Below are positions 3,984 to 27,586 of a DNA stretch of 64,000 bases, in pieces. Origin of the DNA: Escherichia coli (GTDB lineage Bacteria > Pseudomonadota > Gammaproteobacteria > Enterobacterales > Enterobacteriaceae); assembly GCF_024223415.1 (NCBI RefSeq), contig NZ_CP100500.1. One strand, given 5' to 3'. The translations under genes and the position numbers were made by a program. The notes beneath the pieces are model-generated. The model saw only the letters and a program-made list of their open reading frames with translations, ran no database searches and had not been told where the DNA came from. Within the stretch, counting starts at the first letter, position 1; each line of letters starts with the position of its first letter.

Positions 3984-4084
3984 CAGTTGAATAATCAACC
4001 GGATTAATTCTCCGGTAAATAACGACAAAAACAAAATTGGCCATTTCGGTCAGGGCCAACTATTGCCTGAAAAAGGGTAACGAT

Positions 4085-5455: not shown

Positions 5456-5509
5456 TGTCGGATCTTCCCTTACCCCACTGCGGGTAAGGGGCTAATAACA
5501 GGAACAACG

Positions 5510-6904: not shown

Positions 6905-6905
6905 T

Positions 6906-8384: not shown

Positions 8385-8455
8385 GTTGTTGTTTTCGGTT
8401 CCGGCAACAAAAACAACAACATAACCTCACCTGGCATCAAATTTATGAGGAAAAA

Positions 8456-9736
8456 ATGAAATTACTTATTCTGGGCAACCACACTTGCGGCAATCGTGGC
8501 GACAGCGCCATCTTGCGCGGCTTACTTGATGCCATCAACATCCTCAATCCACATGCCGAAGTGGACGTGATGAGCCGCTATCCGGTCAGTTCTTCCTGGC
8601 TGCTCAACCGCCCGGTAATGGGCGATCCGCTGTTCCTGCAAATGAAACAACACAACAGCGCGGCGGGCGTTGTCGGGCGCGTTAAAAAAGCCCTCCGTCG
8701 CCGCTATCAGCACCAGGTATTGCTCTCGCGCGTCACCGACACTGGCAAGCTGCGTAATATCGCCATCGCCCAGGGATTCACCGACTTCGTGCGCTTGCTG
8801 TCAGGCTACGACGCCATTATTCAGGTCGGCGGATCGTTTTTTGTCGATCTCTATGGCGTGCCACAGTTTGAACATGCGCTTTGCACATTTATGGCGAAAA
8901 AGCCGCTGTTTATGATTGGTCACAGCGTCGGCCCCTTCCAGGATGAGCAATTTAACCAACTGGCGAACTACGTATTCGGTCACTGCGACGCGCTGCTCCT
9001 GCGCGAATCGGTCAGCCTTGATTTGATGAAACGCAGCAATATCACTACCGCAAAAGTGGAACATGGCGTCGATACCGCGTGGCTGGTCGATCACCACACC
9101 GAAGATTTCACCGCCAGCTATGCCGTTCAACACTGGCTGGACGTTGCCGCACAACAGAAAACGGTAGCAATTACCCTGCGCGAACTGGCACCGTTCGACA
9201 AACGTCTCGGCACCACTCAACAAGCGTATGAAAAAGCCTTTGCCGGGGTGATCAATCGCATTCTCGACGAAGGCTATCAGGTGATTGCGCTTTCCACCTG
9301 TACGGGCATCGACAGTTATAACAAAGACGATCGCATGGTGGCGCTCAATCTGCGCCAGCACATCAGCGATCCTGCCCGTTACCACGTAGTGATGGATGAA
9401 CTCAACGATCTGGAAATGGGCAAAATTCTCGGAGCCTGTGAACTCACCGTCGGTACGCGCCTGCACTCCGCCATTATCTCGATGAATTTTGCCACTCCGG
9501 CAATTGCCATCAACTACGAACATAAATCCGCCGGGATTATGCAACAACTGGGGCTGCCAGAGATGGCGATTGATATCCGTCATTTACTGGACGGCAGCTT
9601 GCAAGCGATGGTTGCGGATACCTTAGGCCAACTTCCGGCGCTGAACGCGCGACTTAACGAAGCCGTCAGTCGCGAACGTCAGACGGGAATGCAGATGGTG
9701 CAATCTGTGCTTGAGCGCATCGGGGAGGCGAAATGA
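8456..9736 (+). CDS. wcaK: colanic acid pyruvyl transferase WcaK
   Basis: ORF 8342..9736; probable start at MKLLILGNHTCGNRGD (8456), giving 426 aa; polysaccharide pyruvyl transferase family. Confidence 0.85.
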   Translation: MKLLILGNHTCGNRGDSAILRGLLDAINILNPHAEVDVMSRYPVSSSWLLNRPVMGDPLFLQMKQHNSAAGVVGRVKKALRRRYQHQVLLSRVTDTGKLRNIAIAQGFTDFVRLLSGYDAIIQVGGSFFVDLYGVPQFEHALCTFMAKKPLFMIGHSVGPFQDEQFNQLANYVFGHCDALLLRESVSLDLMKRSNITTAKVEHGVDTAWLVDHHTEDFTASYAVQHWLDVAAQQKTVAITLRELAPFDKRLGTTQQAYEKAFAGVINRILDEGYQVIALSTCTGIDSYNKDDRMVALNLRQHISDPARYHVVMDELNDLEMGKILGACELTVGTRLHSAIISMNFATPAIAINYEHKSAGIMQQLGLPEMAIDIRHLLDGSLQAMVADTLGQLPALNARLNEAVSRERQTGMQMVQSVLERIGEAK

Positions 9737-10953
9737 AGGTCGGCTTCTTTTTACTGAAATTTCCGCTGTCGTCGGAAACTTTCGTCCTCAACCAAATTAC
9801 CGCGTTTATTGATATGGGATTTGAGGTGGAGATTGTCGCGCTGCAAAAAGGCGATACAGAGAACACCCACGCGGCATGGACGAAATACAACCTTGCCGCC
9901 AGAACCCGCTGGTTACAGGACGAACCAACGGGCAAAGTGGCGAAGCTGCGCCACCGCGCCAGCCAGACCTTACGCGGCATTCATCGTAAAAATACCTGGC
10001 AGGCGCTCAACCTCAAACGCTATGGTGCCGAGTCGCGGAACCTGATTTTGTCTGCCATTTGCGGTCAGGTCGTAACACCGTTACATGCCGATGTCTTTAT
10101 CGCGCACTTTGGTCCGGCAGGGGTAACCGCAGCAAAACTCCGCGAACTGGGTGTCATTCGCGGCAAAATTGCCACCATTTTCCACGGCATTGATATTTCC
10201 AGTCGGGAAGTGCTCAACCACTACACTCCCGAATATCAACAACTGTTTCGCCGTGGCGACCTGATGCTACCGATAAGCGATCTGTGGGCCGGAAGGCTGC
10301 AAAAAATGGGCTGCCCGAGGGAAAAAATCGCCGTATCGCGCATGGGCGTGGACATGACGCGCTTTAGCCCGCGTCCGGTGAAAGCGCCTGCAACGCCGCT
10401 GGAAATCATTTCCGTCGCACGCTTAACCGAGAAAAAAGGCCTGCATGTGGCGATCGAAGCCTGCCGTCAGTTGAAAGAGCAGGGCGTGGCATTTCGCTAT
10501 CGCATCCTCGGCATTGGCCCGTGGGAACGACGCCTGCGCACCCTCATCGAACAATATCAACTGGAAGATGTGGTAGAGATGCCGGGCTTTAAACCGAGCC
10601 ACGAAGTGAAAGCGATCCTCGACGACGCGGATGTCTTCCTCCTGCCATCGGTAACGGGCGCGGATGGCGATATGGAAGGTATTCCGGTGGCGCTGATGGA
10701 GGCGATGGCGGTCGGCATTCCGGTGGTTTCTACTCTGCACAGCGGAATACCGGAACTGGTAGAGGCCGATAAATCCGGCTGGCTGGTGCCTGAGAACGAT
10801 TCTCGCGCACTGGCGCAACGACTGGCGGCGTTTAGCCAACTGGACACCGACGAACTGGCTCCGGTCGTCAAACGTGCGCGCGAAAAAGTTGAACACGATT
10901 TTAACCAGCAGGTGATCAATCGAGAACTCGTCAGCTTGCTGCAAGCTTTATAG
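9733..10953 (+). CDS. wcaL: colanic acid glycosyltransferase WcaL
   Basis: 406-aa GT family 1/4-like ORF; 4-nt overlap with wcaK. Confidence 0.85.
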
Positions 10954-10963
10954 AGGAGAACGC

Positions 10964-12358
10964 ATGCCATTTAAAAAACTCTCCCGACGCACCTTCCTGA
11001 CGGCAAGCTCCGCGCTTGCCTTCCTTCATACGCCTTTCGCCCGAGCACTTCCTGCCCGGCAAAGCGTTAACATTAACGACTACAACCCACACGACTGGAT
11101 TGCTTCATTTAAACAAGCCTTCAGCGAAGGGCAAACGGTCGTCGTGCCTGCCGGATTCGTTTGTGACAATATCAACACCGGCATCTTCATTCCTGCAGGT
11201 AAAACGTTACACATCCTTGGAAGCCTGCGCGGTAACGGCAGAGGGCGATTTGTCTTACAGGACGGCAGCCAGGTGACAGGGGAGGAGGGCGGCAGTATGC
11301 ATAACATCACCCTGGATGTGCGCGGCTCTGACTGCACCATCAAAGGGCTGGCGATGAGCGGCTTTGGTCCGGTAACGCAGATTTATATCGGCGGCAAAAA
11401 CAAACGGGTCATGCGCAACCTGACCATCGATAACCTCACTGTCAGCCACGCTAATTACGCCATCTTACGCCAGGGATTTCATAACCAGATTATCGCTGCC
11501 AACATCACCAACTGTAAGTTCAGCGACTTACAGGGCGACGCCATTGAATGGAATGTGGCGATTAACGACCGCGATATTTTGATATCCGACCACATCATCG
11601 AGCGCATCAACTGTACCAACGGCAAAATCAACTGGGGCATCGGCATAGGCCTTGCGGGAAGCACTTACGATAATAATTACCCGGAAGATCAGGCAGTGAA
11701 AAACTTTGTCGTGGCGAATATCACGGGATCGGATTGTCGACAGTTGATCCATGTTGAAAATGGTAAACATTTTGTTATTCGTAATATCAAAGCCCGCAAT
11801 ATCACGCCGGATTTCAGTAAGAAAGCAGGCATTGATAACGCCACGGTCGCTATTTACGGTTGTGACAATTTCGTGATTGATAATATTGAAATGATTAATA
11901 GCGCCGGGATGTTAATCGGCTATGGGGTAATTAAAGGCAAATATCTCTCGATACCGCAAAATTTCCGAGTGAGTAATATTCAACTGGATAATACCCACCT
12001 TGCTTACAAATTGCGCGGCATCCAAATCTCCGCCGGGAATGCCGTCTCCTTTGTGGCACTGACTAACATTGAGATGAAGCGTGCGTCGCTGGCGCTTCAC
12101 AATAAACCGCAACATCTTTTTATGCGAAATATCAATGTGATGCAGGAATCCACTGTTGGACCCGCACTGAGCATGAACTTCGACATGCGCAAAGACGTAC
12201 GAGGTGTCTTTATGGCGAAAAAAGAAACACTCCTGTCTCTTGCAAATGTTCATGCGGTGAATGAAAAAGGGCAAAGCTCCGTCGATATCGACAGGGTTAA
12301 TCACCATATTGTTAATGTGGAAAAGATTAACTTTAGATTGCCGGAACGGAGGGAGTAG
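10964..12358 (+). CDS. wcaM: colanic acid biosynthesis protein WcaM
   Basis: 464-aa ORF with signal-like N-terminus (Tat-like [13 protein letters not shown]); last gene of the wca cluster. Confidence 0.8.
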
Positions 12359-13426: not shown

Positions 13427-13699
13427 TGAAAATCTGACTGGATGTAACGGTTGATAAGAAAATTATAACGGTGGTGAAAATTCGCAGGAAAAGTAACTTG
13501 TTGCGAATATTCCTGCCGTTATTTGATATAAATAACCAGCATAACAACGAGTTAATATTAGGATTTTAGTCAAAGTTTCCTAGGATTTTTCTTGTTTCCA
13601 GAGCGGATTCGTAAGACAATTAGCGCCTTAGTTTTACGGGTTAGCGTGAGTGAGCCATGCTCGTTACATCGCAGGTGTGTATTCAGTGTTCTGGTAGCT

Positions 13700-13722
13700 G
13701 TAAAGCCAGGGGCGGTAGCGTA
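13700..13722 (+). promoter_or_regulatory. JUMPstart/ops element (GGCGGTAGCGT) for RfaH-dependent antitermination
   Basis: Exact ops core GGCGGTAGCGT in the about 1 kb AT-rich galF to O-antigen intergenic region; coordinates approximate. Confidence 0.6.
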
Positions 13723-14450
13723 CATATGAGGAAACATTTCAGCTGAAATAATTGAATATTCCAAAGCATGAGAGTTACTTAATTTGTAAAAGTGCTACAG
13801 TACAATAGAGAGGATCTCTGTCTTCATATTGTTTGCGATCATCTCAGATGAAGTTATTGATTTCATCTTTTAATAGAAGAACTGAATAGAATATGTATGG
13901 CATTATCATTTTGAACAATAATAATAGAATAAAAGGAAGACATCGAAATGGTGGTCAAACATTACATCAGTTCTATTGATTTGACAGCAGAGAAGTCTGC
14001 CACAGCGAACCAAAATTACTGACTCGTAGAGAAGAAGTTGCACTGGCTGCTGAATGGTAATGGATGAAGACGACAGAGAAATAAGAAAAGAAAACTCAGC
14101 AGAATTACCTTCAGGGATATAGCGCATCACTATTTATGTATTGACTAAAGATAAAGCATTTAAGAAAGGTTAAGGTGTAAGGTGTGAAAAGCAGCCATGG
14201 GTAAGGTTCGTTTCGCACAGGCGTTACTTACAGTAGATGGTCGGCACATCGTAAGACTTGGTCTGATTGCCAGATCATATGTGAGACATCAGAAAAAATT
14301 TAAGCAAATATATAAACAGTAGGTGATGTTGTTAAAGTATAAAACAGATATGGTAGTCAAATAAAGCAAAGTATCGTTGGAAAAATATCTGTAAAATCCC
14401 TGGTGCGTTCACGTGAGTTAGAGTAAAAGTAATGAGGAGGTTCTATTTTT

Positions 14451-15551
14451 ATGAGTTTTGAAAATTGGTATATAAAAGATATTGAACCATATAAACTGGC
14501 TAGTCATAAAGTATGGGACGATGTTTGCAACCGAGATATATTAAAATTAGATTGGAATGAAGCAACTATTCCTGCTAGTCCGTATGTAAAGAAAAGAATT
14601 TTAGAAACTATTGATAAAATAGAGTTTAGATATTACCCAAACGTAAACAACATGGAGTTGTTAACAGCTATCGCGGGATATACTCAACTCAACATAGAAA
14701 ATATTCAATATTTTCCAAGTTCTGATGCTGCACATGAATATATAGCATCAGTATTCTTAACATCAGAAGATAGAGTGTTAATATTGTCCCCGACATATGA
14801 TAATTTCAGGCTAACCTGTCAAAGTAGAGGGGCGGAAATATCGTATGTTAATTGTTTTGATGGGGCGTTTCAATTCCAGAGTGAATTATTTATAAATGTT
14901 TTGAAAGAAACAAAGCCTAAAATTGCATATATGTGTAACCCTAACAATCCGACGGGTTCAATAATAAGGCGGGAATATATAAAGAAAATATTAACTCTTT
15001 TTCCTGATATCTTGTTTGTTTTAGATGAGGCTTATATTGAATTTTCATCTGGTTCATGTGGTGATTTTGTTAAGGAATATGATAATTTGATAGTATCAAG
15101 AACCTTCTCGAAGGCATTTGCGCTGGCCAATTTTAGGATTGGTTATATATTGGCTTCACCTAAACTTATAGTTTCAATTAATAAAATAAGAAATTCTAAG
15201 AATGTAACGACATTATCACAAGAGGCTGCAGTTGCTGCATTGCATGATTCTCAATATATGCAAGCTTATGTTAATGAGGTGATTGTAGCGCGACAATACT
15301 TTATTGAAGAGATAAATAGAAGGTTTGGAGATAAGCTGATAGCATATGAAAGTCATGGTAATTTTGTTCTTGTAAAATGCTCCTCGGAAATACTAAAAAA
15401 AACATTAATAAAAGGCCTGGAGGAACAAGATATTTTCATAAGAGATTTGTCACACAAGGAGCTCAATGGTTTACATATAAGGATTACTATTGGAACACGG
15501 ACTCAAATGAGGCAGGTGCTTAATGTTATTGAAAATATTATTGGTCAATAA
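14451..15551 (+). CDS. PLP-dependent aminotransferase (HisC-like class I/II)
   Basis: 366-aa ORF with histidinol-phosphate-aminotransferase-like features; first gene of the AT-rich O-antigen cluster. Confidence 0.75.
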   Translation: MSFENWYIKDIEPYKLASHKVWDDVCNRDILKLDWNEATIPASPYVKKRILETIDKIEFRYYPNVNNMELLTAIAGYTQLNIENIQYFPSSDAAHEYIASVFLTSEDRVLILSPTYDNFRLTCQSRGAEISYVNCFDGAFQFQSELFINVLKETKPKIAYMCNPNNPTGSIIRREYIKKILTLFPDILFVLDEAYIEFSSGSCGDFVKEYDNLIVSRTFSKAFALANFRIGYILASPKLIVSINKIRNSKNVTTLSQEAAVAALHDSQYMQAYVNEVIVARQYFIEEINRRFGDKLIAYESHGNFVLVKCSSEILKKTLIKGLEEQDIFIRDLSHKELNGLHIRITIGTRTQMRQVLNVIENIIGQ

Positions 15552-15587
15552 TATGTTTGCAGGCGCTCTTTATTATGTTGGTCAGCG

Positions 15588-16277
15588 ATGAAATATAAAT
15601 ACGCTTTTTTTGATTTTTGTGAAACGTTGGTGGATTTACAAACTGCTGATGATTACATTTCTGATGTGATTATTAAGAAGGAAGGCCGATGGAGTTATAA
15701 GCTTGCGATTATTGGCTTCTTAAGGAATAGATGGGTTAATAAATTATTTAATAAATTGTTTAACAATTATGATAACCCTAAGTCTTTGATTTTGAAGCTG
15801 GTTAAAGGGTTTGACTATGGGGTCTTTTCTGTTGCTGCAGAAGAATATTGTAAAAAACTAATGGAGTATTACTTAATTGATGATGTTATTTCGGAGATGC
15901 TAGAATTAAAAAAAAAGAATTATCAAATAATCATTGTCTCTGGGGGATATGATATATATATAAAGCATTTTTTTTCCTCAGTTGTAGATAAGGTTATAGC
16001 TACCGAGATTGATTTTTCTGATTCTAAGTGTCTGGGGAAAATATCAGGTATTGATTGTTTAGGTGTGAACAAGTTAAACAAAATAAAGAAATATATTGAT
16101 GTCAACACAATAGATTATGAAAATTCCTACGTCTTTTCTGACAGTAAAACAGATTTGCCTCTTTTTTCGTTAGCAAAGAATAAAATTGTCATATCTAAGA
16201 AAAAAAACAAATCGTGGGTTAATGAGCAAAATGAAGAATTTATTGAAAAAGTATGGTGTCCTAAAAAAATATGCTAA
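15588..16277 (+). CDS. HAD-family hydrolase/phosphatase
   Basis: 229-aa ORF with N-terminal HAD motif I (FFDFCETLVD) and size typical of HAD phosphatases. Confidence 0.6.
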   Translation: MKYKYAFFDFCETLVDLQTADDYISDVIIKKEGRWSYKLAIIGFLRNRWVNKLFNKLFNNYDNPKSLILKLVKGFDYGVFSVAAEEYCKKLMEYYLIDDVISEMLELKKKNYQIIIVSGGYDIYIKHFFSSVVDKVIATEIDFSDSKCLGKISGIDCLGVNKLNKIKKYIDVNTIDYENSYVFSDSKTDLPLFSLAKNKIVISKKKNKSWVNEQNEEFIEKVWCPKKIC

Positions 16278-17145
16278 GAAGTATTATTACTATACTTCTT
16301 CTTTTTTAATGTCAGATGAATTATATATAAAAAGGAAGTTTAAGAAAATTTTCGGATATGCTTTGGATATCAATAATCCAAAAACAATGAATGAAAAGAT
16401 GCAATGGATGAAGTTACATATGCATCCTCAGGAATATAATATTTTTGCAGATAAACTTCTTGTTAGAAAATACGTGGAAGAAAAGATTGGTAAAAATATA
16501 CTAATACCTATTTTTGCAGTATACGAAAGTGAAGCCGAATTAAATATAGATTCTTTGCCTGACGAACCATTTATCATTAAGACGAATCATGATAGTTCTG
16601 GTGGAATAATCGTGAGAAACAAATCAGAACTCAATATAAAGGATGCAAAAAGTTTTTGTCGATTTAATTTGAATAACAATCATTATTATATATCAAGAGA
16701 GAAACATTATAAACATTTAGACAGAAAAATTATTATAGAGAAGCTCCTTCTTACAAAATCCGGAAAAATCCCAAATGATTATAAAATAAATTGTATAAAT
16801 GGGCGTGCTGAATTTATATATTGCTCTATTGATAGAGAGGGGAAAAATTACCGAAAGATTTATGACAGGTCTTGGTGTGAAATGGATTTTAAATGGGGAA
16901 ATAAAGATGAGTTTGAGCATAAATTTACTGGGCCCAATATTGAAAAGCCTGATAATTTAGATAAAATGATTGAGTATGCGGAGATATTATCAATGGGGTT
17001 TCCTTATCTAAGAATAGATTTATACAATGTTGATGGGGAAATATATTTAGGAGAAATAACTATTTATCATGGGGGAGGGTTTGATGTTATTGAGCCAAAA
17101 GAATATGACTTATTTTTTGGTAATAAGATTCATTTAGAAAAATGA
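16222..17145 (+). CDS. TupA-like ATP-grasp protein (putative amidoligase)
   Basis: ORF 16186..17145 overlaps the previous gene; start probably at an internal Met (16222 or 16231); resembles the TupA-like ATP-grasp family found in polysaccharide clusters. Confidence 0.6.
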   Translation: MSKMKNLLKKYGVLKKYAKKYYYYTSSFLMSDELYIKRKFKKIFGYALDINNPKTMNEKMQWMKLHMHPQEYNIFADKLLVRKYVEEKIGKNILIPIFAVYESEAELNIDSLPDEPFIIKTNHDSSGGIIVRNKSELNIKDAKSFCRFNLNNNHYYISREKHYKHLDRKIIIEKLLLTKSGKIPNDYKINCINGRAEFIYCSIDREGKNYRKIYDRSWCEMDFKWGNKDEFEHKFTGPNIEKPDNLDKMIEYAEILSMGFPYLRIDLYNVDGEIYLGEITIYHGGGFDVIEPKEYDLFFGNKIHLEK

Positions 17146-18362
17146 AAAATATTATAAAGAATGGGCTGTCTCTTTCTTTTATAAAGGCAGTGACTTTGCT
17201 ATTTCCTATCGCCATTGTACCTATCCTGATATCAAAGATAGGAATGGATAAATATGGGGAAGTTGTATTTATCACTGCAATATATTCATATTTTATTAAT
17301 GTGGTTAGCTTTGGATTTGAAGAATCAGCCACTCAAGTCTTGGCAAAGAATCACTTCTCAGGTTTGTCGAAAAATGAATATATTTTGTCTGTTATCGTGC
17401 TCAAGGGCATAATTGCTGTTTCTATAATTTTTGTCATTTGTGGTTTGTATTTTTTGGGGATGGGAGGAGATTTTTTCTCATTGCTATTTTGTATTACCAT
17501 CGTCGCTGAGGTTTTTAATCCCTTATGGTTTTATCAGGGGGTCGAAAGAATTCATATTATCTCAGTGAGCTCTATAGTATCAAAATCATTATATACAATA
17601 TTAATATGTCTGTTTGTGAGATGTAATAATGATTATTACCTTGTTCCTGTATTTTTAGGCGGTGCGAATATTCTTTCTTATGTCTATCCGTTTGTTGCTA
17701 TGTGTAATGAGTGTAAATTTCGGCGCAATGACTTGAACTATAATAATTTGAAAAAAGTATTATTAGACTCAGTTAGTATATTCCTTACTAATTTTATCCC
17801 AACATTGAAAGATAAGATAGGTGCTATATTGATAGGTTTATCTTTCTCCATGAATATCGTAGCGATTTATGATATAATTATAAAAATACTTAATTTATTG
17901 TTTATTCCAGTAAATGTAATAAATGCATCGTTCTATCCAACACTTTCCAGGAAGAGAGAAAAGAAAATATTAATGCAATTAATGTATATAAATTTGGGTT
18001 ATGCTATTTTTGCATTTGTTATCGTATGTAATTTTTTTGATTATTTTTCCAATATCTACTTCCAATCCTATTCAGCGTATTCCGATGCTGTAAAAATAAT
18101 ATCTGTGTCTGTTGTTTTTTACTCAGTGAGTTTAATGATTGGAAAAAATATCCTATTGGTCACTGGTTTTTATCATCATGTGCTGCTCAGTATTATATTA
18201 TCGACAGGATTTTATTTGATGTTTGTCTGCTTTATGTATTCTCTTAGTTCATTGAGTATATATTCATTATGCTTTTTAACAACAGCATCATTCTTATTTG
18301 AAATGCTGGTTAGGTTAATTATGTTAAAGAAGACTAAGGCCTTGTTTTTTTTTAAATATTAA
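17142..18362 (+). CDS. wzx: O-antigen flippase
   Basis: 406-aa, very hydrophobic, about 12 predicted TM segments, AT-rich; 4-nt overlap with the upstream gene. Confidence 0.7.
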   Translation: MKNIIKNGLSLSFIKAVTLLFPIAIVPILISKIGMDKYGEVVFITAIYSYFINVVSFGFEESATQVLAKNHFSGLSKNEYILSVIVLKGIIAVSIIFVICGLYFLGMGGDFFSLLFCITIVAEVFNPLWFYQGVERIHIISVSSIVSKSLYTILICLFVRCNNDYYLVPVFLGGANILSYVYPFVAMCNECKFRRNDLNYNNLKKVLLDSVSIFLTNFIPTLKDKIGAILIGLSFSMNIVAIYDIIIKILNLLFIPVNVINASFYPTLSRKREKKILMQLMYINLGYAIFAFVIVCNFFDYFSNIYFQSYSAYSDAVKIISVSVVFYSVSLMIGKNILLVTGFYHHVLLSIILSTGFYLMFVCFMYSLSSLSIYSLCFLTTASFLFEMLVRLIMLKKTKALFFFKY

Positions 18363-18376
18363 TTAGGTATGGAAGT

Positions 18377-19246
18377 ATGAAAACAGTGTCAGTAATCATT
18401 CCAACATATAGGGATTGGGAAAGATTATCTAAATGTTTAAATGCAATAAAAAAACAAAGATATCCCGCAGAGTTTATTCAGGTAATAGTCATTAATAATG
18501 ATCCATTTGATGATAATCCATTTATAAATAGTGATGAATATAAAAATGTAAAGTTTTTAGTAGAGGGAAAGGTGGGTTCTTATGCAGCAAGAAATAAAGG
18601 CCTAAATTATGCAAAAGGGGAGATTATAGCATTCACTGATTCAGATTGTGTCCCAGATGAGTTTTGGATTTCAAATGCTGTTCGACATTTTGAAGAAAAT
18701 AGTAAATGCACAAGAATTGGTGGGAAAATTGAATTATTTTTCAAAGGTAATGTAAGTAAAACCCTAGCTGAATTTTATGAACAAAGTTATGCTTTCCGGC
18801 AGAAAGAGTTTGTTCAACGACAGGGAATGGCTGCAACAGCTAATATGTTCTCATATAAGAAGGTTTTTGATGATATATCATATTTCAATGATTCATTGAT
18901 GTCGGGAGGAGATGCCGAATGGGGAGTTAGGGCAAATAATAAAGGATATAGAATAGACTATTGTGATTCTGTCACTGTTTATCATCCGGCAAGAGAATCG
19001 ATGAAACAAATTTTTATAAAAAATCGAAGGGAAGCCAGTGGTAAAATAAAAAATAAACGAAAAGTGTTAATCAATTTTGTAATGTCATTGCTCCCACCAT
19101 TAAAATCGTTGATGTATATTAGGTATCATGGGAATAGTATATATAAAGTATTAATTGCATTTTTTATTAGATATTTAATGAGGATTGATACGGCTATAGA
19201 ACAAATCCGGGTTGTGTTTTTTAATAAGAAAGCCGAGCGATTATGA
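18377..19246 (+). CDS. glycosyltransferase family 2
   Basis: N-terminal GT2 signature (VSVIIPTYRDWERLSKCLNAI) and DxD (TDSDC). Confidence 0.75.
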   Translation: MKTVSVIIPTYRDWERLSKCLNAIKKQRYPAEFIQVIVINNDPFDDNPFINSDEYKNVKFLVEGKVGSYAARNKGLNYAKGEIIAFTDSDCVPDEFWISNAVRHFEENSKCTRIGGKIELFFKGNVSKTLAEFYEQSYAFRQKEFVQRQGMAATANMFSYKKVFDDISYFNDSLMSGGDAEWGVRANNKGYRIDYCDSVTVYHPARESMKQIFIKNRREASGKIKNKRKVLINFVMSLLPPLKSLMYIRYHGNSIYKVLIAFFIRYLMRIDTAIEQIRVVFFNKKAERL

Positions 19247-20487
19247 AAATGTTTTTTTTTGTTCTTTGCGTGTTCTTTTTAATAAATGGCTTTTATATAT
19301 ATCCGCCATTTAATAGTGCAATTTTAGCACCGATGTTAGCTTTATTGGGAGCACTAACATTAAGGAAGAAAATAACGATAAAGCCCTTTTCTGACTTGTT
19401 AGATCCTTCATTTTTATTTTGGTTTCTTTTTGTAAGTTGTTATTGTCTATCAATTGCAGTTTTCTCAAAAACATATGACTTATCATATGTAAAGAACTTT
19501 ATATCACAACTTGTTCAATTTGCTATTATTTTATTTAGTTTTTTTATGTTATCATCAATAGATGGAGCATTTTCTCTTAAGATAGAAAAAATTATCGTAT
19601 ATAGCTTCGTTTTACAATCTGTTATTCAGATAGCAGCATTTCTATATCCTGGAATAGCCGATATTATTCATTTATTTTATGATAAAGATAAAGTAGAGCG
19701 ATTATACATCAATTACGCAGGAGTAAGAGGACTGGCGTTGACTGGTTCCCCAGGGTGGGGAATATCTGTTGGATATGCTATATCATTTTTACTTTTTGTT
19801 AAAGCATTTGTTATTAATCAGAAATTGAAGTTTTCTAGTATTATAGTTGCAATACTACTTTTAATCGGTGCAATGTTTACTGGTCGCAGTGCTTTTATTG
19901 GTGTTATTTTCGGTGGGGGGTATTATCTTGTATCAGGAGAGGATATTACAAAAAAAATCAAAACTATAATTCTATTTTTAATTCTTCCTGCATTAATATG
20001 CATGTTAACATATATAATGTTGCCATCCCTATCCTCACTATTCGGAGATAAGGTTTTCCCATTTGTCTTTGAGTTCTATTATAAATACAAAGACACAGGT
20101 GAGTTATCTACTAAATCTACAGATATTTTGTTGAATATGTGGGATCTTAACGTTGATGTTACTGACATTGTGTTCGGTACAGGTAATTTCACAAATGACA
20201 AAACTGGAGAGTATTATTTCGGTAGTGATGTGGGATATCTCCGGAATTTATTGTATGGTGGTTTTTTTTGGATGTTCACTCTTTTTATTTATCAGGTTTC
20301 ATTATTTGGACAACTGCGTTGGTGGAAAAAAAGAAAGGATATTAAATTATTTGTATTCATTTTTATAGCCATGTTAATGTTGCTTGAGATGAAAGCAATG
20401 GCCATAGGATATAATAAATATGTGTTTACAGTTTCTATTTTATTAGGATTGTCATTTAAAGAGAGATACAGAAATGCTTACCAATAA
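19243..20487 (+). CDS. wzy: O-antigen polymerase
   Basis: 414-aa polytopic membrane protein with a large loop, extremely AT-rich; typical Wzy profile. Confidence 0.6.
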   Translation: MKMFFFVLCVFFLINGFYIYPPFNSAILAPMLALLGALTLRKKITIKPFSDLLDPSFLFWFLFVSCYCLSIAVFSKTYDLSYVKNFISQLVQFAIILFSFFMLSSIDGAFSLKIEKIIVYSFVLQSVIQIAAFLYPGIADIIHLFYDKDKVERLYINYAGVRGLALTGSPGWGISVGYAISFLLFVKAFVINQKLKFSSIIVAILLLIGAMFTGRSAFIGVIFGGGYYLVSGEDITKKIKTIILFLILPALICMLTYIMLPSLSSLFGDKVFPFVFEFYYKYKDTGELSTKSTDILLNMWDLNVDVTDIVFGTGNFTNDKTGEYYFGSDVGYLRNLLYGGFFWMFTLFIYQVSLFGQLRWWKKRKDIKLFVFIFIAMLMLLEMKAMAIGYNKYVFTVSILLGLSFKERYRNAYQ

Positions 20488-21385
20488 AGTCTCTGTTGTT
20501 ATTCCGACACATAGTCGGCCTAATCTTTTGCGAAAAGCTATAGAAAGTGTTTTGAATCAGACATATAAGCCATGTGAAATTATTGTTGTTGATGATACAG
20601 AATCTGAAGAAACCGCTCGATGTTTATCTGTCATAAATAGCGATATACCTATTAGGCTAAAGTATAACACTTCTTCTGGTGCCGGCTCGTCTAGGAATTT
20701 AGGTGCAAAGATTGCTAATGGTGATTTTGTGGCTTTCTTGGATGACGATGATCTCTGGCTTCCAACTAAATTAGAAACGCAGATGTATGAATTGCGGCAT
20801 ACACAATATGATGCAATTTTTTGTCAGATGATAATAAATTATGAAGGGGTAAACATACAATATTCTACTCGAGCCAAAAATGTAGCTGAACCATTAAAAG
20901 AAATATGTATTGAAAACTTTATTGGTGCCACAATATCCTGTGTTATACGCCGTTCAATTTTTATGAAATTAGGAGGGTTTGATGAAAGATTCAAGGCTAG
21001 AGAGGAATATGATTTATGGATTCGAGTTATTCAATCTAATGCTAAAATTAAAATAATAGAAAAACCATTAACTATTTCAAATCGTTCTTTTGTACGGAAT
21101 CGTATTTCTTCTAACATAAATAATTATGAGCACGGAATATCACTTATTAACGAAAAATATGCTCGATTGATTACTGAAATATTAACTCCCAATGAGAGAA
21201 GAATAAGATTATCGAAACAATATGAATTTCTAGCTGCTCAGGCAATATCTTTAGGCCTTAAAATGACAAGCTCAAAGTATTATTTTAAGTCTTTTTTAAC
21301 AATTCCTTCTCTTAAATCGTTATTTCTTTCATTGTTGAGTATTATTTCTCCGCTAATGATAATAAAAATTAGAAGCAAACTTTAA
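20474..21385 (+). CDS. glycosyltransferase family 2
   Basis: N-terminal GT2 signature (VSVVIPTHSRPNLLRKAIESV) and DDDD motif. Confidence 0.75.
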   Translation: MLTNKVSVVIPTHSRPNLLRKAIESVLNQTYKPCEIIVVDDTESEETARCLSVINSDIPIRLKYNTSSGAGSSRNLGAKIANGDFVAFLDDDDLWLPTKLETQMYELRHTQYDAIFCQMIINYEGVNIQYSTRAKNVAEPLKEICIENFIGATISCVIRRSIFMKLGGFDERFKAREEYDLWIRVIQSNAKIKIIEKPLTISNRSFVRNRISSNINNYEHGISLINEKYARLITEILTPNERRIRLSKQYEFLAAQAISLGLKMTSSKYYFKSFLTIPSLKSLFLSLLSIISPLMIIKIRSKL

Positions 21386-21427
21386 TTATATCATCATTAT
21401 TAGACAGTCAATAACTGTGGAGTTAAC

Positions 21428-22690
21428 ATGAGTTCTGGGTTTAATTCTATTGAAAAGAACTTTTCAAGATTTTTATCTTACTTTCCAGGGATAAAAAAAA
21501 TAATTAAAAAAGCTTACATAAGGATAAATTTTTATATCTACAAAAAAGAACATAAAGTAAAAAGTGATTACAGCATCCATACGATTGATATCGATAGTTG
21601 CGAAACTTTTTTTGGATACTATGATAAATGTCCCGATAATGGTAAAGGAGATGTTATCGTTTGTGCATCGACTATATCTACCCACAACATACCTGATCCA
21701 AACAATCCGATTAAATTATATGTGTACAATCTTTGTACTAAAGATAAGGTGTTCATTGCTAATATTTCTGCATATAATTGGCAACAAGGATGTCGTGCTC
21801 ATTGGCTAAACGATGATTTACTTATTTATAACTTTTACTCTCATGAAAAGCGTAATTATTCGTCGAAAATATACTCAATCATAGAGAAAAAACATATAGC
21901 AGAGTTCTCTTTTGCGGTACAAGACAGTTTTCTTGGTAATTATTTTTTATCTATAAACTATTCTCGCTTAATGGCGTTACGCCCAGATTATGGATATAGA
22001 AATAAAAGTTTTTCTTGGGAATTGTTTGATCTGGCTAATGATGGTATATGGAAAGTCGATATTAGCTCTCGTAAGGGAGAATTAATCGTTACATTTTGTG
22101 ATATTATTAATTTTGAGTTTGAAAATAATGATGAGTATAAACATAAAGTTAACCATGTAATGATTTCTCCCGATGGTGAAAAATTTATATTTATACATCG
22201 TTATTATTATAAAGGTAAACGGAATGATAGATTAATGTTGTCAACCAAAGACGGACATTTAATTTCAGTATTAGCTAATAATAAAATGGTTAGTCATTGT
22301 TGTTGGCTTTCCAATGATAAAATTATCGGTTATTTAAGATCTGATAGTGGTGATGATAGTTATTGGGTTATTGATATAAATAATCTGGAGTCATACCAAC
22401 TCTTAGATGGTGAATTACTAAAATATGGCGATGGTCATCCATCGAATTGTAAAAATCTATTAGTGACGGATACATATCCTAATAAGTCAAGATATCAGAA
22501 ATTATTATTAGTCGATATGGATAATGATAATTACCAGGAACTTGGTGAGTTTTTACATGATCTTAGTTTTTCTGATGAGACTAGATGTGACTTACATCCT
22601 CGCTTTTCTCATGATGGCAGCATGATTTTTTTTGATTCAGTTTTTTCTGGAAAACGCAAGTTATGCTATTTACAGTTAATTAATAAATAA
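21428..22690 (+). CDS. hypothetical protein, beta-propeller-like C-terminus, inside the O-antigen cluster
   Basis: 420-aa ORF with no recognisable GT motif; C-terminal repeats (HPRFSHDGSMIFFDS) resemble TolB/oligogalacturonate-lyase-type propeller blades. Confidence 0.5.
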   Translation: MSSGFNSIEKNFSRFLSYFPGIKKIIKKAYIRINFYIYKKEHKVKSDYSIHTIDIDSCETFFGYYDKCPDNGKGDVIVCASTISTHNIPDPNNPIKLYVYNLCTKDKVFIANISAYNWQQGCRAHWLNDDLLIYNFYSHEKRNYSSKIYSIIEKKHIAEFSFAVQDSFLGNYFLSINYSRLMALRPDYGYRNKSFSWELFDLANDGIWKVDISSRKGELIVTFCDIINFEFENNDEYKHKVNHVMISPDGEKFIFIHRYYYKGKRNDRLMLSTKDGHLISVLANNKMVSHCCWLSNDKIIGYLRSDSGDDSYWVIDINNLESYQLLDGELLKYGDGHPSNCKNLLVTDTYPNKSRYQKLLLVDMDNDNYQELGEFLHDLSFSDETRCDLHPRFSHDGSMIFFDSVFSGKRKLCYLQLINK

Positions 22691-22695
22691 AGTGA

Positions 22696-23511
22696 TTGTA
22701 TATGAAAGTCGCAGTCGCAATGTCTGTATATAAGAATGATAATCCTATATACTTAGAGAAAGCCATTAAAAGTATATTGAATCAAACATATAAAAATATC
22801 CATTTATATATAGAGGTCGATGGAGTCATATCTCCACAATTATATCAATGTTTATCCTCTTTTATCTCATGCTCAAATATTAGTATAAATTTTAATAGTG
22901 ATTGTAAAGGATTGGCATTTAGATTAAATAATATTATTGATAAGGTTATATTTGATGGAGGATATTCGTATATTGCAAGAATGGATGCTGATGATATATC
23001 TCGACTCGATAGGATTGAAAAACAAGTAATATTTATGCAGACCCATAAGGATATTTCTGTTGTTGGTTCTGATGTTCTAGAAATAGATGAGGATGATAAT
23101 TTTTTATTTTACAAAAAAATGCATTGTGATCATGAGATCATCGTTCGAGATATTATTAAGAAATGTCCAATAAATCATCCCTCAGCATTTTTTAAAATAT
23201 CTTCATTTTATATAGTTAGATATAATTCCACCTTGAAGAACACACAGGATTATTACTTGTGGATTGATTTTATTTATAATAATTTAAAGATCTCAAACAT
23301 CAATGAGCCTTTGTTAAAATTTAGAGTGAATAGAGATTTTTATTCACGGAGAGGGTTTGATAAAGCTATCAATGATGTAAAATCACGAATATATGCCTTG
23401 CGAAAGTTGAATTGCTATTCACTAAGGAATATATTTCATATATTAATGCTTTTTTTTCTTAGAGTATCTCCGACTGTAATAAAAAAAATTGCATACAATA
23501 GACTTAGATAA
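22696..23511 (+). CDS. glycosyltransferase family 2
   Basis: GT2 signature (VAVAMSVYKNDNPIYLEKAIKSILNQTY) and DADD motif; last gene before gnd. Confidence 0.7.
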   Translation: MYMKVAVAMSVYKNDNPIYLEKAIKSILNQTYKNIHLYIEVDGVISPQLYQCLSSFISCSNISINFNSDCKGLAFRLNNIIDKVIFDGGYSYIARMDADDISRLDRIEKQVIFMQTHKDISVVGSDVLEIDEDDNFLFYKKMHCDHEIIVRDIIKKCPINHPSAFFKISSFYIVRYNSTLKNTQDYYLWIDFIYNNLKISNINEPLLKFRVNRDFYSRRGFDKAINDVKSRIYALRKLNCYSLRNIFHILMLFFLRVSPTVIKKIAYNRLR

Positions 23512-25349: not shown

Positions 25350-26516
25350 ATGAAAATAACAATTTCAGGAACAGGTTATGTTGGTCTTTCAAATGGTATT
25401 CTGATTGCGCAAAACCACGAAGTGGTTGCACTGGATATCGTTCAGGCCAAAGTGGACATGCTTAACAAGAAGCAGTCACCGATTGTTGATAAGGAGATTG
25501 AAGAGTATCTGGCGACTAAAGATCTCAATTTCCGCGCTACGACAGATAAGTATGACGCGTATAAAAATGCCGATTACGTTATTATTGCCACGCCTACCGA
25601 TTATGATCCGAAAACGAATTATTTTAATACCTCAAGCGTGGAAACGGTCATTCGCGATGTGACAGAAATTAATCCCAGCGCGGTAATGATTATAAAATCA
25701 ACTATCCCTGTTGGTTTTACAGAGTCTATTAAAGAACGGTTTGGTATTGAAAATGTGATTTTTTCGCCGGAGTTTTTACGCGAAGGGAAAGCACTTTATG
25801 ATAACTTGCATCCATCACGCATAGTGATTGGCGAGCAATCTGACCGCGCAGAACGTTTTGCAGCGTTATTACAGGAAGGCGCTATTAAGCAAGACATACC
25901 AATATTGTTTACTGACTCAACCGAGGCTGAGGCGATTAAACTTTTTGCCAATACTTATCTGGCGATGCGTGTGGCTTATTTTAATGAACTAGATACTTAC
26001 GCTGAAAGTCTGGGTCTTAACTCCCGCCAAATTATTGAGGGAGTTTGCCTTGATCCGCGTATCGGTAATCACTACAATAATCCGTCATTTGGTTATGGTG
26101 GTTATTGTCTGCCGAAAGATACTAAGCAGTTACTGGCAAACTATCAGTCAGTACCGAATAACTTGATCTCAGCAATTGTCGATGCCAATCGCACGCGAAA
26201 AGATTTTATTGCCGATTCTATCCTTGCACGTAAACCGAAAGTTGTTGGCGTCTATCGTCTGATTATGAAGAGTGGTTCGGACAATTTCCGTGCTTCCTCA
26301 ATTCAGGGTATTATGAAGCGAATCAAGGCGAAAGGCGTGCCTGTAATCGTTTATGAGCCAGCTATGAAAGAGGACAATTTTTTCAGGTCGCGCGTGGTAC
26401 GTGATCTGGATGCGTTCAAGCAAGAAGCTGATGTTATTATTTCTAACCGTATGTCTGCCGATCTGGCTGATGTAGCAGATAAGGTTTATACGCGCGACTT
26501 GTTTGGCAATGATTAA
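25350..26516 (+). CDS. ugd: UDP-glucose 6-dehydrogenase
   Basis: ORF 25323..26516; start at [16 protein letters not shown] gives 388 aa. Confidence 0.9.
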
Positions 26517-26581: not shown

Positions 26582-27586
26582 TCAAACTTTATAGAAGTTA
26601 CGATACCATTCTACAAAGTTCTTTACCCCCTCTTTAACTGACGTTTCAGGTTTGAATCCTATTACGTCATACAGTGCTTTGGTATCAGCACTGGTTTCCA
26701 GTACATCACCGGGTTGGAGAGGCATCATATTTTTGTTGGCTTCAATACCCAGAGCCTCTTCTAACGCATTGATATAGTCCATCAACTCTACAGGCGAACT
26801 ATTACCAATGTTATAGACACGATATGGTGCTGAACTTGTTGCAGGCGAGCCTGTTTCTACAGCCCACTGTGGATCTTTTTCTGGAATAACATCCTGTAAG
26901 CGAATAATAGCTTCGGCAATATCATCAATATAAGTAAAGTCACGCTTCATTTTGCCGAAGTTGTAAACATCAATGCTTTTACCTTCCAACATGGCTTTAG
27001 TAAATTTAAATAATGCCATATCCGGACGTCCCCATGGACCATAAACCGTAAAGAAACGCAGTCCTGTGGTCGGTAAGCCATACAAATGAGAATATGTATG
27101 GGCCATGAGTTCATTCGCTTTTTTAGTTGCTGCATAAAGTGAAACAGGATGATCTACAGAGTCATCTGTAGAGAAAGGCATCATGCGGTTCATACCATAA
27201 ACAGAACTGGAGGAAGCGTAAAGTAGATGCTGAACATTATTATGGCGGCATCCTTCCAGTATGTTCAGGAATCCAATCAGGTTTGCATCTGCATATGCAT
27301 TGGGATTTTCAAGGGAGTAACGTACACCGGCTTGCGCAGCGAGGTTTATTACGCGATCGAACCGCTCCTCTGCAAACAGTGCTGCCATTTTCTCACGATC
27401 GGCCAGGTCAATTTTATAAAAACTGAAATTGTCGTGCTTGAGTAAATCAAGTCGTGCTTGTTTGAGGTTGACATCGTAATAATCATTTAAGTTGTCAATG
27501 CCTACAACCTGATGACCAGCTGCAAGAAGCCGTTTACTTACATAGAAACCGATAAAGCCAGCAGCTCCCGTAACCAGAAATTTCAT
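26582..27586 (-). CDS. gla: NAD-dependent epimerase, UDP-glucuronate 4-epimerase-like
   Basis: 334-aa ORF with Rossmann motif ([12 protein letters not shown]) and YxxxK; sits between ugd and wzzB on the opposite strand. Confidence 0.75.

What the first reader, a model, noticed from the sequence alone, without database searches (positions are those of the whole stretch)
21428..22690. Uncharacterised 420-aa beta-propeller-like protein embedded in the O-antigen operon
This ORF sits between two GT2 glycosyltransferase genes but has no GT-A or GT-B signature. Its C-terminal half has repeat blades reminiscent of TolB or oligogalacturonate-lyase propellers. It could be a non-canonical glycosyltransferase or a polysaccharide-modifying enzyme acting on the uronic acid residue.
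Basis: inference. Interest (0 to 1): 0.4.

Follow-up and report, generated by a model that had tools for sequence, protein, structure and literature searches.

The report
Lyase-like propeller enzyme in O-antigen cluster
The gene is real and encodes a seven-bladed propeller enzyme from a very large, unstudied family that is distantly related to a pectin-fragment lyase and almost always sits beside one particular sugar-transferase gene, so it is a good candidate for an undescribed step in making bacterial surface sugars.

Summary
The ORF at 21428-22690 (+) is real, with a GGAG ribosome-binding site. It lies between two GT2 genes in an AT-rich E. coli O-antigen cluster (galF to gnd).

An AlphaFold model (pLDDT 90.8, pTM 0.90) is a beta-propeller from about residue 44 to the C-terminus. 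It is preceded by basic amphipathic helices and has no signal peptide or membrane segment.

The family is large (at least 1,481 clusters at 50% identity), occurs in bacteria and archaea, and has no Pfam or NCBIfam model. I found no characterisation of it.

In 44 of 53 close relatives an orthologous LgtA/EpsE-like GT2 follows immediately. In 11 of those the GT2 is fused to the initiating phosphoglycosyltransferase.

Best reading: a cytoplasmic, metal-dependent enzyme acting on the lipid-linked intermediate made by that GT2. Its chemistry is unresolved between a uronate C5-epimerase-like modification and a new glycosyltransferase fold.

The parts
21428..22690 (+). Target gene: 420-aa cytoplasmic propeller protein distantly related to PL22. 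Residues 1-40 form basic amphipathic helices and residues ~44-416 form the propeller. Residues invariant across the family include H243, S289, H290, W293, D335, H337, D348, Y350, D388 and H390.
21419..21422 (+). GGAG ribosome-binding site 5 nt upstream of the ATG of the target gene.
   Evidence: Read directly from the sequence
22702..23511 (+). Partner glycosyltransferase: a 269-aa LgtA/EpsE-like GT2 starting 11 nt after the target's stop codon. An orthologue follows the propeller gene in 44 of 53 close relatives.
20474..21385 (+). Upstream GT2 glycosyltransferase (303 aa). It is a different GT2 subfamily from the partner (22% identity).
14451..15551 (+). HisC-like PLP aminotransferase, the first gene of a putative uronic-acid amidation module (amino-alcohol phosphate supply).
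   Evidence: analogy with Cj1437 in PMC12409886
15588..16277 (+). HAD-IB phosphatase of the amidation module.
   Evidence: analogy with Cj1435
16231..17145 (+). TupA-like ATP-grasp amidoligase of the amidation module.
   Evidence: analogy with the C-terminal domain of Cj1438
17142..18362 (+). Wzx flippase.
18377..19246 (+). GT2 glycosyltransferase (289 aa).
19243..20487 (+). Wzy O-unit polymerase (annotated as such in RefSeq; no Pfam hit).
25350..26516 (+). ugd, UDP-glucose 6-dehydrogenase (supplies UDP-GlcA).
26582..27586 (-). gla-like NAD-dependent epimerase. A role as UDP-GlcA 4-epimerase supplying UDP-GalA is inferred from family and position.

Best explanation
The gene encodes a soluble cytoplasmic enzyme that is probably held at the inner face of the membrane by its basic amphipathic N-terminal helices. 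Its body is a seven-bladed propeller that shares ancestry with PL22 oligogalacturonate lyases.

The central catalytic site is kept in modified form. Four histidines, each at the start of one of four successive blades (H243, H290, H337, H390), are invariant, together with D335, D348 and D388. H290 and R268 sit where PL22 has its base histidine and its arginine. D388 and H390, and probably H337, sit where PL22 binds Mn2+.

I propose that the enzyme works on the undecaprenyl-diphosphate-linked O-unit just after the co-transcribed LgtA/EpsE-like GT2 has added the second sugar to the initiating HexNAc.

The chemistry I think most likely is metal-assisted proton abstraction at C5 of a uronic acid residue. 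This would be a C5-epimerase-like modification that installs an L-uronic acid for which no nucleotide donor exists. The ATP-grasp module would then amidate the residue in this E. coli cluster.

Shown here: the fold, the homology to PL22, the conserved site, the cytoplasmic features and the gene pairing. Inferred: the substrate, the order of steps and the epimerase chemistry.
For: Fold and homology:
- The model has pLDDT 90.8 and pTM 0.90.
- 6 of 40 family members weakly hit Pfam PF14583.
- hhalign of the family against a PL22 alignment gives 84% probability and E 8e-6. The alignment is collinear over residues 72-420.

Catalytic residues:
- R268 aligns with PL22 R217, H290 with H242, D388 with H353 and H390 with H355.
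- All of these PL22 residues are invariant in the PL22 alignment.
- H243, H290 and H337 are present in 83 of 83 family members. D388 and H390 are present in 82 of 83, with a gap in the remaining sequence. The members go down to about 27% identity and include archaea.

Location: there is no membrane segment or signal peptide (maximum KD19 of 0.68). The first 45 residues carry 11 basic and 2 acidic residues in predicted helices.

Coupling to the GT2:
- An orthologous GT2 lies immediately downstream in 7 of 7 hand-checked loci and in 44 of 53 close relatives.
- In 11 loci that GT2 is fused to a Bac_transf phosphoglycosyltransferase. This places it at step 2 of assembly.

Uronic acid link:
- ugd, gla and the amidoligase module are present in this cluster.
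- Uronic-acid markers lie within 10 kb in about 24 of 33 close loci with at least 15 kb of flank. This count includes VimE-like deacetylases of a di-N-acetyl-glucuronate.

Precedent (from my own knowledge): polymer-level uronosyl C5-epimerases such as AlgG/AlgE, DS-epimerase and Glce share folds and mechanism with polysaccharide lyases.
Against: - No biochemical or genetic data exist for any member that I could find.
- The PL22 metal site is not conserved as such. Gln350 has no counterpart and His353 is Asp. The pairing of His287 with H337 is my own reading of blade register and is not what hhalign reported.
- A His/Asp-bound metal plus a histidine base could equally bind the diphosphate of a nucleotide sugar and activate an acceptor hydroxyl. 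That is glycosyl transfer.
- About a quarter of close loci show no uronic-acid gene within 10 kb. One example is the compact Bacteroidales operon made of an unknown gene, a GT2, the propeller gene and the partner GT2.
- I have no baseline for how often uronic-acid genes occur in comparable loci that lack the family.
- One member is fused to a WaaS/CpsH-family glycosyltransferase. This fits either a bifunctional GT or a GT plus a modifier.
- The O-antigen structure of this O-untypeable genotype is unknown, so sugars cannot be counted against transferases.
Confidence: 0.35

Rival explanations
1. It is a glycosyltransferase of a new, propeller-based fold. The His/Asp-bound metal would hold the diphosphate of a UDP-sugar, and H290 would deprotonate the acceptor. 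The enzyme would add the third sugar onto the disaccharide made by the downstream GT2.
For: - It sits inside the block of transferase genes, between two GT2 genes.
- It is tightly paired with a GT2 that acts at step 2.
- One relative is fused to a WaaS/CpsH-family glycosyltransferase.
- It occurs in loci and compact operons with no uronic-acid genes nearby.
- Many database entries call it 'glycosyl transferase'.
- From my own knowledge, a propeller GT family derived from GH130 enzymes (GT108) shows that such a fold change is possible.
Against: - The 'glycosyl transferase' names appear to be automated or inherited annotation with no experiment behind them. One example is V. alginolyticus 12G01 'putative glycosyltransferase'.
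- There is no similarity to any GT family in Pfam or NCBIfam.
- The nearest homologues are lyases, and the residues retained are the ones that do proton abstraction next to a carboxylate.
- As far as I know, no Leloir GT derived from a lyase has been described.
Confidence: 0.25
2. It is a catalytic enzyme with other chemistry on the lipid-linked intermediate or its donor. Possibilities include a hydrolase, a phosphatase or lactonase-type metal enzyme as in other metal-containing propellers, or a trimming or editing glycosidase.
For: - The conserved His/Asp-rich centre indicates metal-dependent catalysis but does not fix the reaction.
- From my own knowledge, six-bladed metal propellers include phytases, lactonases and phosphotriesterases, and GH145 is a seven-bladed hydrolase.
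- About a quarter of close loci show no uronic-acid genes within 10 kb.
Against: - The closest structure and the only sequence-detectable relatives are PL22 lyases, not hydrolase propellers.
- No phosphate- or lactone-related partner genes are consistently nearby.
Confidence: 0.2
3. It is a non-catalytic partner. It would act as a scaffold or substrate-presenting subunit that recruits the downstream GT2 or the assembly complex to the membrane.
For: - The gene pairing is very strong, with overlapping or abutting reading frames.
- The membrane-seeking N-terminus would suit a recruiting role.
- From my own knowledge, propellers are common interaction platforms.
Against: - An AlphaFold run on a paired propeller-linker-GT2 alignment gave well-folded domains (pLDDT 87.8). 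The pTM was only 0.59, the value expected if the two domains have no defined mutual orientation.
- About 25 polar and aromatic residues, including four histidines and three aspartates, are invariant down to 27% identity. That pattern is typical of an active site, not an interface.
- Distant family members lack the partner GT2.
Confidence: 0.1
4. It is an ordinary catabolic oligogalacturonate lyase or a TolB paralogue that happens to lie in the cluster.
For: The fold resembles both.
Against: - Both family thresholds fail by a wide margin. TolB scores 19.7 bits against 343, and PF14583 gives no hit for this protein.
- There is no signal peptide.
- True PL22 genes lie beside kduD, kduI and KdgM-type porin genes. 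This gene and thousands of relatives lie in polysaccharide synthesis loci.
- The PL22 metal ligand set is altered.
Confidence: 0.02

Closest known systems
PL22 oligogalacturonate lyase (Ogl; Y. enterocolitica 3PE7, V. parahaemolyticus VPA0088 3C5M; Pfam PF14583)
   Same: - The profile alignment is collinear (84% probability, E 8e-6).
- The arginine and base histidine are conserved (R268/H290 against R217/H242).
- One metal histidine is conserved (H390 against H355), and probably a second (H337 against H287).
   Different: - Identity is only about 14%, and Pfam's threshold is not reached.
- Metal ligand His353 is Asp, and Gln350 has no counterpart.
- There is an extra N-terminal amphipathic helical segment.
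- There are many extra invariant motifs (FFGYYDK, NWQQG, RPDYGY, TDTYP).
- The genomic context is polysaccharide synthesis next to a GT2, not pectin catabolism next to kduI, kduD or KdgM-type porin genes.
TolB / PD40 propellers and the propeller domains of S9 peptidases
   Different: There is no signal peptide, no TolB N-terminal domain and no peptidase domain. The TolB equivalog scores 19.7 bits against a cut-off of 343. The invariant His/Asp centre is absent from those proteins.
Polymer-level uronosyl C5-epimerases (AlgG/AlgE, DS-epimerase, heparan Glce). This is a comparison of how it might work, not of family, and rests on my own knowledge.
   Same: The proposed logic is the same. A lyase-type active site would be reused to invert C5 of a uronic acid after it has been transferred, because no L-uronic acid nucleotide donor exists.
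   Different: The folds are different (beta-helix or alpha/alpha toroid in those enzymes, propeller here). Those enzymes act on finished polymers, while this one would act on a lipid-linked oligosaccharide in the cytoplasm. The activity is entirely untested here.
C. jejuni HS:2 glucuronamide pathway (Cj1437 aminotransferase, Cj1438 C-terminal ATP-grasp amidoligase, Cj1435 phosphatase). This concerns the neighbouring genes only.
   Same: The first three genes of this cluster belong to the same three families (class I/II aminotransferase, HAD phosphatase, TupA-like ATP-grasp). In C. jejuni, amidation occurs on the growing glycan before the next transferase acts (PMC12409886).
   Different: Here they are three separate proteins in a Wzx/Wzy O-antigen cluster. 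The amine (serinol or another amino alcohol) is not known. The propeller family occurs without this module in most loci.

Membership tests
PL22 oligogalacturonate lyase (PF14583) | Beta-propeller fold like Ogl | tested here: met
   [not shown]
PL22 oligogalacturonate lyase (PF14583) | Sequence match above Pfam's gathering score (30 bits) | tested here: not met
   No hit for the window protein. 6 of 40 relatives hit weakly, best E 6e-4 and 12.8-14.5 bits, in the last blade only.
PL22 oligogalacturonate lyase (PF14583) | Mn2+ site of three histidines and one glutamine (His287, His353, His355, Gln350). The roles are from my memory of the YeOGL study; invariance was checked here. | tested here: not met
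   All four residues are invariant in the PL22 alignment. In the family, His355 corresponds to H390. His353 corresponds to D388. Gln350 has no counterpart, since R386 aligns with R349. The pairing of His287 with H337 is only my own register reading.
PL22 oligogalacturonate lyase (PF14583) | Base histidine (His242) and Arg217 | tested here: met
   hhalign pairs H290 with H242 and R268 with R217 in the confident part of the alignment. H290 is present in 83 of 83 family members and R268 in 76 of 83.
PL22 oligogalacturonate lyase (PF14583) | Pectin-catabolism gene neighbourhood (kduI, kduD, KdgM-type porins, transporters) | tested here: not met
   PL22 genes on plasmids lie beside kduD, kduI or KdgM-type porin genes or beside a transporter gene. 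The target and its relatives lie in polysaccharide synthesis loci.
PL22 oligogalacturonate lyase (PF14583) | Beta-elimination activity on oligogalacturonides | not testable with these tools
   Needs an enzyme assay (absorbance at 232 nm).
TolB (TIGR02800) | Equivalog score, signal peptide, and N-terminal domain plus periplasmic propeller | tested here: not met
   19.7 bits against a cut-off of 343.15, covering residues 382-412 only. No signal peptide or hydrophobic segment.
GT-A glycosyltransferases (e.g. GT2, PF00535) | Rossmann-like alpha/beta fold with a DxD motif, and a match to a GT-A profile | tested here: not met
   No GT profile hit. The model is all-beta after residue 44.
GT-B glycosyltransferases | Two Rossmann-like domains, and a match to a GT-B profile | tested here: not met
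The uncharacterised ~420-aa propeller family itself (no Pfam or NCBIfam model) | Full-length match, invariant motifs, and length of about 420 aa | tested here: met
   2,994 hits at E<=1e-3. 1,481 clusters at 50% identity with E<=1e-30. The window protein carries all invariant residues.
The uncharacterised ~420-aa propeller family itself (no Pfam or NCBIfam model) | Orthologous LgtA/EpsE-like GT2 immediately downstream (close subfamily) | tested here: met
   In the window the GT2 starts 11 nt after the stop codon. 44 of 53 close relatives show the same arrangement. The GT2 orthologues are 29-68% identical.

The most novel reading that the evidence does not exclude
This protein belongs to a very widespread, wholly uncharacterised enzyme family found in bacteria and archaea. 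The family would be a biosynthetic offshoot of PL22 lyases working with a dedicated GT2 at the second or third step of lipid-linked glycan assembly. It would be either the first propeller-type uronosyl C5-epimerase acting on a lipid-linked oligosaccharide, or the first glycosyltransferase fold derived from a lyase.
Probability: 0.5. Interest if true: 0.8.

Novelty: new variant of a known kind. Interest (0 to 1): 0.55.

Why it matters
Surface polysaccharide loci are heavily studied for typing, vaccines and phage receptors. Even so, this family has no Pfam or NCBIfam model and no experimental record that I could find. It comprises at least 1,481 clusters at 50% identity and occurs from Enterobacteria to Bacteroidota, Firmicutes and archaea. 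It is labelled variously 'hypothetical', 'TolB family' or 'glycosyl transferase'.

Its fixed pairing with one GT2 subfamily points to a conserved two-step reaction at the base of many repeat units.

If it is an epimerase, it would explain how some L-uronic acids enter bacterial glycans. If it is a transferase, it adds a fold to the glycosyltransferase catalogue, and the transferase-versus-sugar counts used to interpret O-antigen clusters would need correcting. In either case the current database names should not be trusted.

Tried and rejected
- **Profile searches.** Pfam, NCBIfam and PADLOC scans of the protein gave nothing usable.
- **Solved structures by sequence.** The single sequence found nothing. 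The family profile found only a chance CE2 hit at E 0.2.
- **AFDB fold search.** It was unavailable.
- **The YeOGL paper.** It is not held, so residue roles come from memory. I checked them against invariance in a PL22 alignment I built.
- **Fetching full-length Ogl proteins.** A 60-aa fragment query returned only fragments. I solved this with tblastn on plasmids.
- **Naming the O serogroup.** No related cluster exists in 5,426 complete E. coli genomes beyond two strains. The E. coli O-antigen review gave no match. Combat11I9 is reported as O-:H28, that is, untypeable. Counting sugars against transferases was therefore impossible.
- **Named or characterised members.** Literature searches found none. 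The V. alginolyticus capsule study does not identify the gene. The Proteus O-antigen paper and its supplements do not mention it.
- **Propeller-GT2 complex.** The paired AlphaFold run gave pTM 0.59, so no interface is supported. With 24 pairs and a linker, this negative result is weak.
- **'The propeller serves the amidation module'.** Rejected, because most loci with the family lack the ATP-grasp gene.
- **'The ORF is disrupted in a sister strain'.** Rejected as homopolymer sequencing error.

Full report
**Setting.** The window is E. coli chromosome. The gene order is wcaM, galF, a cluster at about 29-34% G+C (14.4-23.5 kb), gnd, ugd, a gla-like epimerase on the opposite strand, wzzB and the his operon. 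The cluster encodes:
- a HisC-like aminotransferase;
- a HAD-IB phosphatase;
- a TupA-like ATP-grasp amidoligase;
- Wzx;
- a GT2;
- Wzy;
- a second GT2;
- the target;
- a third GT2.

Only 2 of 5,426 complete E. coli genomes carry the cluster. One of them, Combat11I9, is reported as O-:H28, meaning it cannot be O-typed in silico. The O-antigen structure is therefore unknown. The same cluster, gene for gene, occurs in an Edwardsiella tarda genome at about 67% protein identity.

The ORF at 21428-22690 has an ATG with a GGAG 5 nt upstream. It is 420 aa and lies between two GT2 genes. It is intact in Combat11I9. In strain 181.1 it differs by five single-base deletions, all in runs of A or T. That assembly shows 23 indel columns against 5 substitutions over the cluster. 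The apparent disruption is therefore most likely a sequencing artefact. The identical protein is recorded on 154 contigs.

**Structure.** No Pfam family matches. NCBIfam gives only sub-threshold propeller hits. An AlphaFold model built on 40 relatives has pLDDT 90.8 and pTM 0.90. It has two N-terminal helices (residues 7-38), then beta-strands from residue 44 to 416. By strand count and by its match to Ogl I read this as seven blades. The propeller fills the protein, not just its C-terminal half. There is no hydrophobic segment or signal peptide. The first 45 residues carry 11 basic and 2 acidic residues. From this I infer a cytoplasmic protein that leans on the membrane surface.

**Closest known relative.**
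- Foldseek gives it the highest TM-scores.
- Six of 40 relatives touch Pfam's PL22 model weakly.
- One relative aligns to Y. enterocolitica Ogl (3pe7) over the last blade.

I rebuilt a PL22 alignment from five annotated ogl genes on plasmids. Comparing the two profiles gave 84% probability and E 8e-6, collinear over residues 72-420.

In the confident part of that alignment:
- R268 pairs with PL22 R217.
- H290 pairs with H242.
- R386 pairs with R349.
- D388 pairs with H353.
- H390 pairs with H355.
- Gln350 has no partner.

From memory of the YeOGL study, H242 is the base and H287, H353, H355 and Q350 bind Mn2+. All of these are invariant in my PL22 alignment. I think H337 (GDGHP...LLVTD) corresponds to H287 (CSHLMSN...LLVGD) by blade register. 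hhalign did not report this pairing, so it remains inference.

Across 83 family members from bacteria and archaea, down to about 27% identity, many residues do not vary. H243, H290, H337, S289, W293, D335, D348, Y350, Y188 and Y190 are the same in all 83. D388 and H390 are the same in 82, with a gap in the remaining sequence. This is the signature of an enzyme. Its active centre is related to that of PL22 but is not identical to it.

**The family.** A word-indexed search found 2,994 relatives. An exhaustive profile search found 3,456 clusters at 50% identity at E<=1e-3, of which 1,481 have E<=1e-30. Nearly all are about 420 aa. Source names are 'hypothetical', 'TolB family' or 'glycosyl transferase'. 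The last appears to be inherited automated annotation. I found no paper on any member.

**Genomic context.**
- In seven hand-checked loci the gene is followed at once, often with overlap, by a small GT2.
- These GT2s are orthologous to the window's downstream GT2, at 29-68% identity with shared LgtA-like motifs.
- NCBIfam relates them, below threshold, to EpsE, TuaG and AglG.
- In 79 loci from species-representative genomes, 44 of 53 close relatives with enough downstream sequence have this GT2 immediately downstream. The figures are 6 of 22 and 0 of 9 for progressively more distant relatives.
- In 11 loci, all Alcaligenaceae-like, the GT2 is fused to a Bac_transf phosphoglycosyltransferase.
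- In several others the order is propeller, GT2, epimerase, phosphoglycosyltransferase.

The GT2 therefore most likely adds the second sugar, and the propeller enzyme belongs to the same early stage. One relative is fused to a WaaS/CpsH-family glycosyltransferase.

An AlphaFold run on 24 paired propeller-linker-GT2 sequences folded both parts well. The pTM was 0.59, so no fixed interface is supported.

**Link to uronic acids.** This cluster has ugd, a gla-like epimerase and a three-gene module. That module matches by family the C. jejuni enzymes that make serinol phosphate, ligate it to glucuronic acid on the growing glycan, and remove the phosphate. The propeller family is independent of the module, because only 5 of 87 loci have the ATP-grasp gene. 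Some marker of uronic-acid chemistry lies within 10 kb in about 24 of 33 close loci with long flanks. The markers counted are:
- a UDP-sugar dehydrogenase;
- a gla-like epimerase;
- the ATP-grasp gene;
- an AsnB-like amidotransferase;
- a VimE-like deacetylase.

Compact Bacteroidales operons have none of these, and I have no background rate for comparison. The link is suggestive only.

**Conclusion.** With high confidence (about 0.8), the gene encodes a real, conserved, cytoplasmic, probably metal-dependent enzyme of a new family distantly homologous to PL22. That enzyme is functionally tied to the downstream GT2.

The chemistry is open. I favour a uronate C5-epimerase-like modification of the lipid-linked intermediate (about 0.35). 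The residues kept from PL22 are those that abstract the proton next to a metal-bound carboxylate. A transferase-plus-modifier pair would also explain the fixed gene pairing across phyla. A glycosyltransferase of new fold (about 0.25) is a serious rival. Other hydrolytic chemistry (about 0.2) and a non-catalytic partner role (about 0.1) are less likely. An ordinary Ogl or TolB is excluded.

Noticed in passing
window 14451-17145: The three genes are a HisC-like aminotransferase, a HAD-IB phosphatase and a TupA-like ATP-grasp amidoligase. By family they match the C. jejuni Cj1437, Cj1435 and Cj1438 (C-terminal domain) pathway, which amidates glucuronic acid with serinol or ethanolamine. This suggests the E. 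coli O-antigen carries an amide-linked amino alcohol on GalA or GlcA.
   Followed up: partly
window 14451-23511; L003 2992-12090: The whole nine-gene O-antigen cluster is syntenic with one in Edwardsiella tarda (67-69% protein identity for the target and its partner). Its G+C content is about 29-34%, against about 53% in the flanks. This points to transfer across genera from an AT-rich donor.
   Followed up: partly
window 14451-23511: The O-antigen genotype is rare, found in 2 of 5,426 complete E. coli genomes. A preprint reports strain Combat11I9 as O-:H28, so it is not among the standard typeable O groups.
   Followed up: partly
L002 (E. coli 181.1) 3040-12079: RefSeq annotates most genes of this cluster as split or truncated. 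The differences from the window are 23 indel columns against 5 substitutions. In the target gene all five indels are single-base deletions in homopolymer runs, so they are probably long-read assembly errors rather than real pseudogenes.
   Followed up: yes
L021, L022, L029-L031, L034, L037, L041, L042, L044, L049 (just downstream of the propeller gene): In Alcaligenaceae-type loci the partner GT2 is fused to a Bac_transf phosphoglycosyltransferase (about 470 aa). This is a natural two-step initiating enzyme.
   Followed up: partly
P0255 / L011 6659-8713: A 684-aa relative fuses the propeller to a C-terminal WaaS/CpsH-family glycosyltransferase domain (NF053598, 174 bits).
   Followed up: partly
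L077 (Lokiarchaeota MAG), L084 (ANME-1): Family members with 31-33% identity occur on archaeal contigs. I did not examine whether this reflects true archaeal genes or binning errors.
   Followed up: no
L010 6379-7731 and 10 other close loci: DUF7033 proteins co-occurring with the family match NCBIfam VimE, a UDP-2,3-diacetamido-2,3-dideoxy-glucuronate deacetylase. The score is 168 bits, below the equivalog cut-off. This hints at di-N-acyl uronic acids in those polysaccharides.
   Followed up: partly
L040 7705-12120: Gut Bacteroidales carry a compact operon made of a 426-aa unknown protein, a GT2, the propeller gene and the partner GT2. It lies next to a divergent WaaP/Kdo-kinase-like gene, with no wzx, wzy or initiating transferase within 10 kb. 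This may be a lipooligosaccharide-core type of use of the pair.
   Followed up: partly
window 13427-14450: About 1 kb with no long ORF lies between galF and the first cluster gene. This is the usual place for the O-antigen promoter and the JUMPstart/ops element. I did not examine it.
   Followed up: no
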